In this document: piece after piece, positions 57,880 to 61,519 of the stretch
Layout of the letters: the number at the start of each line of letters is the position of its first letter
Numbering within the stretch: position 1 is the stretch's first letter
NCBI RefSeq assembly: GCF_009914755.1
Contig: NC_060934.1
Strand: one strand, 5' to 3'
Length of the DNA stretch: 64,000 nucleotides
Source: the human T2T-CHM13v2.0 reference genome, Homo sapiens
Position numbers and translations under genes: made by a program
The notes under the pieces: generated by a model
What the model saw: only the letters and a program-made list of their open reading frames with translations
Told to the model about the DNA's origin: nothing
Databases searched by the model: none

Positions 57880-60440
57880 CATAAGCAAAGGAAAAGATTA
57901 ATGACAAAATAAGAAAAAATGCAATATGCAACAAAGAGTTATTATCCTAAAATATAAAGAACTTCTAAAAAGAATAGAGACATGAATAGAGTGCACTGAA
58001 AAAAGTTCAGATGTCTCTTAAACATATGAAAGGATGTTCAACCTCACTCATCACAAAGAAGGTGCAAATAAAACCTTAATTGAGATGCCATTTCTTACCC
58101 CTCAGAATGTTAAAAATGCAGAGTTTTGAAAACAAATTATTGGAGAGGCTGTGGGGACATAGACATTCTCACACATTGCTAGAGAATGCAAGATGGTACG
58201 ATCACTACATAAGAGAATATAGCAATACCTAGCAAAAACCTATGCATTTCATTTTCTTTTGACCAAACAATACTACCATTGGAAAGATATCCCAAAGGTA
58301 CATTGGCAAAAATACAATACGACAAGTGAATAAGGTATTTTGTTGCAGTAACATTTGGAATTCCAAAAGATTGGAAACAAGACTGGGTGTGATGTCTCAT
58401 GCTTGTAGTCCCAGCACTTTGGGAGGCTGAGGCAGGAATATCATTTGAGCCCAGTTTAAGAACGGCCTGGGCAGCCATCGCTACAAAAAATAAAAAAATA
58501 AAAATTAGCTGGGTATGGTGGTGCGTGTCTGTAGTCCCAGCTACTGGGGAGACTGAGGAAGGAGGATCACTTGAGCCTGGGAGGTTGAGGCTGCTGTGAG
58601 ACACGATCGCACCCTGTCTCAAAAATAAAAAACAAAAGACTAAAAAGAAAATGGCCAAAGGACTGGAAACAAGCCAAATGTCCGTCAATAGAGTATTGAT
58701 TGAACAGAAAATGAGACATCACATAGCGGCATACTATGCTCTGATTATGGAGTAATCTCCAGGATATATGATGTGAAAAAAAGCCAACTATAGACCAGTG
58801 TGTATATTATGCTCCCTTTTATCTAAGAAAGAGGAAAATACAATTATATGAGATCATTTGCTTAATTTTTAAATAGAAGGATAAATCAAAAACTAATAAA
58901 AACTGTTCTCTAATGGGGGAGAAAGAACAGAGTGGAAGGGACAGGAAAAAAAAAAGCTAGACCTCTCATAATCTACCATGCCCATTGATTTGGCTTTGGA
59001 ACTATAAATATATTTTACATAATTATAAAGCAAAATTTGAGAAAAATGAAAGAAATATTTAAAATCACAACTGAAGTGAAACTGGTGAAATAATTGCATT
59101 GAGCTGACAACCATAGAGAGTAGAAATATTCCAAGGGACCTTAAACACTGTAATTTGACTATACCGCTCAAGCAAAACATATTTTAAATACACAAAAAAG
59201 AACAAAGAAATCTTAAATGGTTTCCAGTTATCATACCATTAGTAATAATATTAGTATTGTTATTTTGAAAATATGTACAGTAGGACTAAGTACATAAATA
59301 ATATGTTCATGTCATTGGGAACCAGGATTTTTACTGTATGAGAGAAGAGGTAGAAATGTAAAGTAAAAAAAAAAAAAAAAAGCAACTCTATAATCTCAAT
59401 ATTCCAATATAGTGTAAAATCACTATGAATATATAGGGTATTTTTTCTTTAAAAAACAACAAAAAAGTTTTTTCTAATTCTGTCCACTGAAAGGTCTAGA
59501 GACGATGACACACCCAGTACCAATAGCCATCCGTAGCACCCAGATTGTGAGATCTAAATACCATTTCCCACAGAAAAAGTCAGAGCTCTTTAGGGAAATC
59601 AGGGTTTTCAGTCCTGAGGTAAATAATGTGCAGGAAGAGCCTAGAACATCTTTTCTGACCAGAAAGCAAAGGAGCTTTCAAAGGTAACTGGAGTTTGGTT
59701 AAAACAAGTTCAGAAACTAACTGGAAAATTTTCCAGAGTTTTGAAAACAAATTATTAACAAACACAACAAACAAAACACGGAAAAGTGTTTCATTTTTAA
59801 ATGCCTAGAATTGATTAAAGCACATCAAATGTGATATAATATATAAATGTACAGATATCGAAAACAAAACAAAATAAAATGGAATAAGTGACCATTTTGA
59901 AGAATGCTAAGGAACCAAGTTATTAATTTGAATACTTTTTAAAAAAAGAAAAAGAGAGAAAATCAAGCATTTATCCTACCTTTCCTACATGATCTCTGTA
60001 TGAGAGCAACCAAATAGCTGATATGAGTAACTTCTATTCCATTAAAGAACTTCAAATAATAAATAAATAAAGAAGAAATAATAAAATCAAACTATTATCA
60101 TGTTGTAGGTCTCAGTGAATAACTCATCTAAATACTGAACCTAAAGAATGCTAAAACCATTAGAGAAAGTGCAAAAGAGGCTTTTAATGGGAAGTTCAAC
60201 CTGAGGAGATCAGAACACTCCGACCAATGTTAACTTCATAATAGAAAAGCAGATTTCATGTATCTCCTGAAAAGATTATTTTTTACCACATAAAACCCCC
60301 TGGATTTAACCAAACTTTTTGGTATAAGCACCAGTTTACAAACAACATGACAAATGGCATGTAGAATATAAACAGCAAAATCCAAGATGTGGGATGATCT
60401 ACAGAACAAACAATCCATTTCTTTCACAAATAAATTTGAA
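57880..60440 (+). mobile_element. Old L1M 3' region containing an AluJ (58381-~58650)
   Basis: aacatatgaaaggatgttcaacctcactca...; ggaaacaa repeated either side of the Alu. Boundaries approximate. Confidence 0.7.
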
Positions 60441-60445
60441 CAATG

Positions 60446-61451
60446 GGCCGCTCTGCCTATGGAGTAGCCATTCTTTATTCCTTCACTTTCTTAATAAACT
60501 TGCTTTCACTTTACTGTATGGACTCACCCCATATTCTTTCTTGTGAAAGGTCCAAGAACCCTCTCTTGGGGTCTAGATCAGGAATCCTTTCTGGTAACAT
60601 CTTCCTGGCAAACCCCACAGGGACGATACGGAGAAAACCCCTGACCCATAGGAAACAGACTGTAGCACCAACTGGCAGACTGTGGATATCACCTTTTATC
60701 AGAGTTATGAACGGGTCTCACCATACTGACGCTTTCTGACTAAGCTCCTCTCTACCCTGAATACAAGAGACCCTAATAGTTAGGCAGGAATATCATCACC
60801 CCTATTCATCCTGAAGGAGTTACAGAAAATGGACTGACATCCCTCTACAACCCTTAGGATTAAAGGTCCCCTTGTAAAAGGGAGTGGGGTAATAAACCAT
60901 AGACATTCAAACCAGAGCAACTCCATCTTGAATAGGGGCTGGATAAAATAGGGCTGAGACCTACTAGACTGCATTTCCAGGAGTTTAAGGAATTCATAGT
61001 CACGGGATGAGATAGGAGGTCGGCACAAGATACAGGTCGCAAAGACCTTGTTGATAAAACAGGATGCAGTAAAGAAGGCAGTCAAACACCACCAAAACCA
61101 AGATGGTGAGGAAAGTGACCTCTGGTCGTCCTCACTGCTCACTATATGCTAATTATAGTGCATTAGCATGCTAAAAGACACTCCTACCAGTGCCATGACA
61201 GTTTACAAATGCCATGGTAACATCAGGAAGTTACCCCACATGGTCTAAAAAGAAGAGGAACCCTCAGTTCCAGGAATTGCCCACCTCTTACCCAGAAAAC
61301 TGATGAATAATTCACTCCTTGTTTAGCAAATAATCACAAAATAACTGTAAGTATACTCAGTCAAGCAGTCCATGCCACTGCTCTGCTTATGGAGTAGCCA
61401 TTCTTTTATTTCTTTACTGTCTTAATAAACTTGCTCTCACTTAAGAAAAAA
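60446..61451 (+). mobile_element. MER41-type ERV retrocopy: R-U5, short internal segment, PPT, U3-R, A-tail
   Basis: R segment (ctctgc.tatggagtagccattc...aataaacttgct.tcactt) at both ends; U5 ends ggtaaca at 60599; U3 contains ccagagcaactccatcttgaatagggg; flanked by tgaacaatg. Confidence 0.85.
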
Positions 61452-61519
61452 TGAACAATGATTAATGATTGATAATAGTAAGGAATTATTGTTTGTTTGT
61501 TTTAGTTTTTATCATTTTC

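What the first reader, a model, noticed from the sequence alone, without database searches (positions are those of the whole stretch)
60437..61460. Permuted MER41-type element that looks like an L1-retrotransposed, spliced ERV mRNA
Seen: the order is R-U5 (60446-60599), PBS-like leader, only ~290 bp of internal sequence, polypurine tract (60876-60889), then U3-R ending 13 nt after AATAAA (61424-61429). A short A-rich tail follows, and the whole is flanked by tgaacaatg (60437-60445 / 61452-61460). It lacks the 5' U3 and the 3' U5. Established: this is the structure of a retroviral RNA, not a provirus or solo LTR, and such L1-made processed copies are known for HERV-W. Inference: the internal sequence was removed by splicing, with a junction near 60685 (gactgtgg|atatc). 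The copy would be a fossil record of this ERV's TSS, splice sites and poly(A) site.
Basis: partly seen in the sequence, partly recalled or inferred. Interest (0 to 1): 0.7.

Follow-up and report, generated by a model that had tools for sequence, protein, structure and literature searches.

The report
LINE-1 copies of MER41 retroviral RNAs
This 1-kb stretch in a cubilin intron has the layout of a retroviral RNA, with a splice-type joint, a poly(A) tail and a duplicated target site, and was likely pasted in by LINE-1; dozens of related MER41-type copies, including 37 inserts of only about 66 bases, carry the same marks, so this old virus family likely spread through LINE-1 much as HERV-W did.

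Summary
Observation confirmed at every coordinate. The junction at 60685|60686 behaves as a splice joint. Related copies that keep the middle start it with GT (18 of 22) and end it with AG (18 of 19). Seven other loci share the junction, start at the same R base, and are rejected as one clade (p-AU 0.0065). The same donor also joins four other AG acceptors. Published MER41B motifs match the U3.

The feature is family-wide: 21 of 30 and 11 of 20 leader-bearing copies lack U3 (overlapping sets). 207 genomic sites show the R end plus poly(A). Of the 75 exact ones, 37 are R-only inserts of about 66 nt, with target-site duplications far above a swapped control.

The mechanism is known (HERV-W; one HML-2 rec copy), but a review calls HERV-W the sole group mobilised this way. 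Ten searches found no report for MER41 or for R-only inserts; three key older papers and Dfam/Repbase notes were not readable. The origin of R-only inserts (short RNA, template jump or R-R recombination) is open.

The parts
60437..60445 (+). 5' copy of target-site duplication
   Evidence: chance rate 2 of 8429
60446..60511 (+). 5' R; the first base marks the inferred transcription start, and that G is not matched by this element's own 3' LTR (possible cap-derived G)
60512..60599 (+). U5, ending in CA
60606..60623 (+). decayed PBS-like stretch (tRNA not tested)
   Evidence: same position and TGG-type start in most relatives
60600..60685 (+). leader, end of exon 1; relatives continue here with GT
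60686..60875 (+). last exon, internal part; relatives have a pyrimidine tract and AG just before it; about 4-8 kb of internal sequence is missing at the joint
60876..60889 (+). polypurine tract
60890..61375 (+). 3' U3 (MER41-type)
61268..61297 (+). tandem GAS (STAT1-type) pair spaced 21 bp; first intact, second with one mismatch
   Evidence: spacing described for MER41B in PMC2897888
61311..61336 (+). match to the published MER41B-derived motif M2 (23 of 26; next best in window 17 of 26)
61376..61442 (+). 3' R with AATAAA (61424-61429); ends at the inferred cleavage site
61443..61451 (+). short poly(A) tail
61452..61460 (+). 3' copy of target-site duplication

Best explanation
The element has the R-U5 ... 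U3-R-poly(A) layout of a retroviral RNA with one GT-AG-type joint and a target-site duplication, and is likely a LINE-1-made DNA copy of a spliced MER41-type transcript, one of many such copies that likely arose from several source proviruses. Steps: (1) a provirus was transcribed from the first base of R (inferred; the shared start base across copies is shown). (2) The leader donor was spliced to the last of at least five acceptors, removing about 4-8 kb (GT/AG ends shown; splicing inferred). (3) The RNA was cleaved and polyadenylated 13 nt after AATAAA (shared end shown). (4) L1 ORF2p copied it to the cap by target-primed reverse transcription into an older repeat in a CUBN intron, antisense to the gene (inferred from tail, TSD and extra 5' G). 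It has no upstream promoter and is likely inert; its 3' U3 keeps one intact GAS site whose activity is untested. Family-wide, such copies make up roughly half to two thirds of sampled leader-bearing copies.
For: Layout and TSD. GT in 18 of 22 and AG in 18 of 19 intron-keeping copies. Same junction in L002-L006, L009 and L017, each with different flanks and an R start; poly(A) plus a visible TSD in L002, L005, L009, weaker in L003 and L006. These copies carry different U3 types (403-502 nt where uninterrupted), and seven of them held as one clade is rejected (p-AU 0.0065). The same donor joins four other acceptors preceded by AG in relatives, and L043 shows a second GT-AG intron. Long unspliced R-start copies have exact 15-16 nt TSDs (L036/L123, L048/L007). 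In 5 of 7 copies whose own 3' LTR has C or T at that place, the 5' base is G; the other two have A after C. PMC4859970 treats untemplated 5' G as a cap mark of L1 copies.
Against: No outgroup empty site was seen; the two paralogues of the 5' flank diverge at the insertion point and do not continue into the 3' flank (inconclusive). The site as it stands is an imperfect TT/AAAA match. L004 and L017 lack a readable tail or TSD. One related copy (L041) joins the same donor at a non-AG site with short microhomology, so deletions at this spot also happen. The tree is mostly unresolved and includes some U3. The 5' G could be templated if source proviruses had unlike LTRs. Census samples are small, overlap by 9 loci, and one was ranked by similarity to this copy.
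Confidence: 0.92

Rival explanations
1. One provirus that had already lost the intron (spliced RNA copied by retroviral RT, or a DNA deletion) acted as master, and L1 copied its unspliced RNA; the shared junction would be one event, not repeated splicing.
For: Spliced RNAs reintegrated in retroviral fashion are described for HML-2 (PMC3590776). L041 shows a non-AG join at this donor.
Against: None of the 8 same-junction copies has a 5' U3; their U3 types differ; one clade is rejected, p-AU 0.0065; five AG acceptors are used.
Confidence: 0.05
2. Two independent LTR fragments, or a provirus trimmed by unrelated deletions, mimic an mRNA.
For: The 9-nt TSD is short, and the endonuclease site is imperfect.
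Against: Both ends fall on the same bases as in dozens of other loci; the element is collinear end to end with 6 other copies.
Confidence: 0.01
3. For the R-only inserts: MER41-type 5' or solo LTRs made a capped RNA of about 66 nt, polyadenylated at the signal inside R, and L1 copied it whole.
For: 37 of 75 exact R-end+poly(A) sites start at the same base as long copies, while truncated U3-bearing copies start at scattered points. A T precedes the tail in 2 of 37 R-only versus 12 of 30 U3-derived copies (Fisher p 0.0007; p 0.013 with the unedited automatic classes; noticed after the fact), hinting at a separate RNA pool. Retroviruses must suppress this 5' signal, in HIV-1 through U1 at the donor (PMC12789967), and solo LTRs lack the donor.
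Against: No RNA evidence here. Promoter proximity is discussed as a brake on such sites (titles only). The cleavage difference could reflect source subfamily or tail slippage.
Confidence: 0.45
4. For the R-only inserts: they come from long RNAs or long copies, through an R-to-R jump during L1 reverse transcription or later recombination between the two R repeats of a long processed copy (like solo-LTR formation).
For: It gives the same start base, 5' G, tail and TSD without a new RNA; long copies with two R repeats are abundant.
Against: Only 66 nt of homology would have to yield about as many products as all other poly(A)-ended copies together (37 versus 30). The base before the tail differs between classes.
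Confidence: 0.5

Closest known systems
HERV-W processed pseudogenes (Pavlicek 2002 and Costas 2002, not read; as described in PMC5537654 and PMC5016936)
   Same: R-U5 / U3-R LTRs, poly(A), short TSD; about two thirds of group members (135 of 213). A minority lack a pre-gag intron by splicing (PMC6995185).
   Different: Here the LTR is MER41-type (about 640 nt versus 780), nearly the whole internal region is spliced out, at least five acceptors are recorded, and an R-only class occurs that the passages read do not mention. PMC5537654 calls HERV-W the sole group specifically mobilised by L1.
HERV-K(HML-2) rec-like retrocopy at 2q32.1 (PMC3590776)
   Same: Spliced ERV mRNA copied by L1, with short poly(A) and TSD.
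   Different: A single 5'-truncated locus with an ORF remnant; here many copies start at the RNA's first base and the spliced form shows no Pfam-matching ORF.
Spliced HERV-H genomic copies (Goodchild 1995; title and one citing sentence only)
   Same: Spliced ERV RNA preserved in the genome by retrotransposition.
   Different: Not read, so details cannot be compared.
MER41 (MER41-int with MER41A/B/D/E/F/G LTRs; Repbase table in PMC5753468)
   Same: U3 carries the MER41B motif M2 and the 21-bp GAS pair.
   Different: The papers seen treat it as LTR enhancers; permuted RNA-shaped copies are not mentioned in them. Subfamily not assigned here.

Membership tests
L1-made processed ERV pseudogene (HERV-W-type definition, PMC5537654) | 5' LTR is R-U5 and 3' LTR is U3-R | tested here: met
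L1-made processed ERV pseudogene (HERV-W-type definition, PMC5537654) | poly(A) tail after the 3' R | tested here: met
   9 nt with one G
L1-made processed ERV pseudogene (HERV-W-type definition, PMC5537654) | 5-15 nt target-site duplication | tested here: met
   9 nt exact; chance 2 of 8429
L1-made processed ERV pseudogene (HERV-W-type definition, PMC5537654) | TT/AAAA insertion motif | tested here: inconclusive
   A-rich flank but imperfect match; TSD start uncertain. Many sister copies have A-rich TSD starts.
L1-made processed ERV pseudogene (HERV-W-type definition, PMC5537654) | empty site with one TSD copy in an outgroup | not testable with these tools
   no relative genomes offered; paralogue proxy inconclusive
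Spliced ERV RNA copy | missing segment starts GT and ends AG | tested here: met
   18 of 22 GT; 18 of 19 AG
Spliced ERV RNA copy | same junction in independent insertions | tested here: met
   7 other loci; one clade rejected
MER41 | published MER41B motif M2 and tandem GAS spaced 21 bp | tested here: met
   23 of 26; GAS at 61268 and a one-mismatch GAS at 61289
MER41 | best match to Dfam/Repbase MER41 LTR and MER41-int models; subfamily | not testable with these tools
HERV-W (LTR17/HERV17) | 780-nt LTR17 with R at 256-326 | tested here: not met
   U3+R+U5 here total about 640 nt with U3 of about 486 nt (LTR17 figures)

The most novel reading that the evidence does not exclude
MER41 is a second human ERV group that spread largely through LINE-1, so HERV-W is not unique. 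Its copies preserve an extinct transcriptome (one start base, one poly(A) site, at least five splice acceptors). About 100 of them (extrapolated: 37 of 75 applied to 207) are unreported micro-retroposons copied from a capped, polyadenylated RNA of about 66 nt made by premature polyadenylation inside the LTR.
Probability: 0.35. Interest if true: 0.72.

Novelty: new variant of a known kind. Interest (0 to 1): 0.58.

Why it matters
If confirmed, the statement that only HERV-W RNAs were mobilised in bulk by L1 needs revising, and the open question of what makes an ERV RNA an L1 substrate gains a second family for comparison. Many MER41 annotations, a family studied for STAT1-bound enhancers, would be promoterless R-U5 pieces, U3-R pieces or bare R inserts rather than solo LTRs, which affects copy counts, dating by LTR pairs and enhancer statistics. 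The copies map the start site, poly(A) site and alternative splicing of an extinct virus at base resolution. The R-only class is either fossil evidence of very short polyadenylated Pol II RNAs from LTRs or a natural record of 66-nt repeat collapse; primate alignments can tell which. The CUBN copy itself is probably inert.

Tried and rejected
Empty-site proxy from two paralogues of the 5' flank: inconclusive. Junction pattern search: 22 matches, of which 8 were real copies already known and 14 had no alignment to the element; its reversed control was high (712), so it was not used as a count. Donor-motif count (182) is not a MER41 count: 9 of its 29 exact matches had no MER41-type R within 300 nt and were dropped before the 11-of-20 count. 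Coding role: the 98-aa ORF at 60443 borrows its ATG from the TSD and has no Pfam match; 7 of 18 open frames (the plus-strand ones) from the middle of one long copy also had none, so what the removed region encoded was not established. In the 75-site set, 8 were unclassified by the script, and 3 of its 40 R-start calls (L135, L156, L168) were moved by eye to U3-derived because they begin a few bases upstream. Single-master and independent-fragment readings were rejected (see rivals). Pavlicek 2002 and Chuong 2016 were not held. No supplements were read.

Full report
1. Observation. The two R copies are 58/66 identical. No U3 precedes the element and no U5 follows it. A 9-mer recurred by chance at this spacing in 2 of 8429 trials. 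By the hub's annotation the element lies in a CUBN intron, antisense to the gene.

2. The junction. A search of the window's own genome with the internal 291 nt gave 41 matches (40 of 453 candidates scored; 30 fetched). Most begin abruptly at window 60685-60701. In 19 fetched copies that keep the upstream sequence, 18 have AG, after a pyrimidine tract, just before the base matching 60686: 17 by script, L014 read by eye, and L013 has AT. A search with the leader (40 matches, 30 fetched) showed that of 29 other copies, 22 keep the sequence after 60685. Of these, 18 start it with GT (14 GTAAGT), 3 have a one-base change and 1 a small deletion. Copies holding both sites place them about 4.2, 6.1 and 7.8 kb apart, later insertions included.

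3. Recurrence. Seven other loci (L002-L006, L009, L017) have the identical junction, different flanks and a start at the same R base. L002, L005 and L009 show a tail and a 15-19-nt TSD; L003 and L006 show a tail and a weaker TSD; L004 and L017 have damaged 3' ends. They are 79-86% identical to one another and carry different U3 types. On a tree of 27 natural copies (L003, L022 and L027 left out for insertions or deletions in the segment), holding seven same-junction copies together is rejected (p-AU 0.0065), though most branches are unresolved. The remaining 7 of the 29 leader copies join the donor to something else. Six use four other acceptors that are preceded by AG in intron-keeping relatives; one (L041) uses a non-AG site with microhomology. 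L043 shows a second GT-AG intron.

4. Cap mark. In 7 copies whose own 3' LTR has C or T at the position of the first base, the 5' end has G in five (this one included) and A after a C in two. PMC4859970 describes untemplated 5' G as the cap signature of full-length L1 and SVA copies (passages). Reading it so here is an inference.

5. Family. The U3 matches the MER41B-derived motif M2 at 23 of 26 (next best in the window 17 of 26) and has a GAS pair spaced 21 bp, the second with one mismatch. Both features are given for MER41B in PMC2897888 (passages). No Dfam or Repbase model was available, so the subfamily is not assigned, and other LTR families may share the R end used below. End branches of about 0.08-0.11 changes per site suggest roughly 40-55 million years at a recalled neutral rate near 0.2% per million years.

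6. How common. Of the 30 fetched leader hits (this copy included), 21 start at R without U3 and 9 have U3; this set was ranked by similarity to the window. Of 29 exact matches to a donor motif (182 matches with up to 2 mismatches), 9 had no MER41-type R nearby and were set aside; of the other 20, 11 start at R and 9 have U3. The two sets overlap by 9 loci. Genome-wide, the R end followed by poly(A) matched 207 times (75 exact; reversed control 0), against 1564 for the R end followed by U5.

7. R-only inserts. All 75 exact sites were read. The script called 27 U3-bearing, 40 R-start and 8 unclear; 3 of the 40 begin a few bases into U3 and were moved by eye, leaving 37. These run about 66 nt from the same start base to the same poly(A) site; 30 of the 40 begin with G. 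TSD scores of 5 or more occurred in 14 of 40 true pairs versus 16 of 1560 swapped pairs. In the 20 sites read with 600 nt upstream, truncated U3-bearing copies start at scattered places, so the R-start peak is not random truncation. Three origins fit: a short prematurely polyadenylated RNA, an R-to-R jump during reverse transcription, or later recombination between the two R repeats of a long copy. A T precedes the tail in 2 of 37 R-only versus 12 of 30 U3-derived copies (p 0.0007; 0.013 with the automatic classes; noticed after the fact). That leans towards a separate RNA pool but could reflect source subfamily. PMC12789967 notes that retroviruses with the signal in R must suppress it at the 5' LTR, in HIV-1 through U1 bound at the donor (passages); solo LTRs lack that donor.

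8. Mechanism. Shown: RNA-shaped layout, shared ends, GT/AG boundaries, tails and TSDs. Inferred: transcription from R, splicing, polyadenylation and L1 target-primed reverse transcription. The copy has no upstream promoter and no Pfam-matching ORF, so it is likely inert; enhancer activity of its GAS site is untested. Against: no outgroup empty site (the paralogue proxy was inconclusive) and an imperfect endonuclease site.

9. Literature. HERV-W processed pseudogenes have the same hallmarks and number 135 of 213; the review calls HERV-W the sole group specifically mobilised by L1 (PMC5537654, passages), while PMC5016936 says 'few HERV groups' used alternative routes (passages). Splicing is recorded in some HERV-W copies (PMC6995185, passages) and in an HML-2 rec-like copy, whose paper also cites HERV-H (PMC3590776, passages). 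Passages of PMC5753468, PMC4724089 and PMC11359688 mention MER41 without such copies. Ten searches (listings only, apart from the papers named) showed no report of MER41 retrocopies or R-only inserts, and 'solo R' with 'processed pseudogene' and 'LTR' gave 0 papers. Pavlicek 2002 was not held; Costas 2002 and Goodchild 1995 were seen as titles only; no supplements and no Dfam/Repbase notes were seen. Any of these could already mention it.

10. Verdict. Taken alone it is a new member of a known kind. The family-wide scale, the recorded alternative splicing and the R-only class make it a new variant of that kind. Interest 0.58; 0.72 if the short-RNA origin and the lack of prior report both hold (probability about 0.35).

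Noticed in passing
37 loci among L052, L109-L181 (e.g. L114, L144, L145, L172): R-only inserts: about 66 nt from the shared start base to the poly(A) site, then a tail and TSD. TSD score of 5 or more in 14 of 40 true pairs versus 16 of 1560 swapped pairs.
   Followed up: partly
L052 (G000:C17 near 49,939,900) and L110 (G000:C1 near 202,863,270): Two R-only inserts lie antisense inside the R of another MER41-type LTR, at nearly the same spot, with TSDs; targeted insertion or a fold-back product.
   Followed up: no
L056/L008, L050, L047, L039, L043, L053: Other splice forms from the same donor. L043 has two GT-AG introns; L056 and L050 have a middle exon of about 120 nt whose second donor is likely but blurred by small changes. 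The acceptor of L053 rests on one intron-keeping copy.
   Followed up: yes
L041: Joins at the donor position to a non-AG site with short microhomology; likely a deletion or template switch.
   Followed up: partly
L048/L007 (G000:C3 40,358,364-40,367,490) and L036/L123 (G000:C14): Long intron-keeping copies that start at R and end in poly(A) with exact 16- and 15-nt TSDs; the C3 copy's tail begins 6 nt further into U5.
   Followed up: yes
L084, L085, L090, L092-L095, L098, L099: The leader donor motif occurs in copies with no MER41-type R within 300 nt, so other ERV groups may share this donor.
   Followed up: no
G000:C1 120.3-148.7 Mb: Six identical one-mismatch R-end+poly(A) matches, likely segmental duplicates that inflate the 207 count.
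   Followed up: no
window 60364-60436: The 5' flank is itself an old dispersed repeat with paralogues on C3 and C23; family not identified.
   Followed up: partly
L002: Carries a second copy of the last 250 nt of U3-R before its tail.
   Followed up: no
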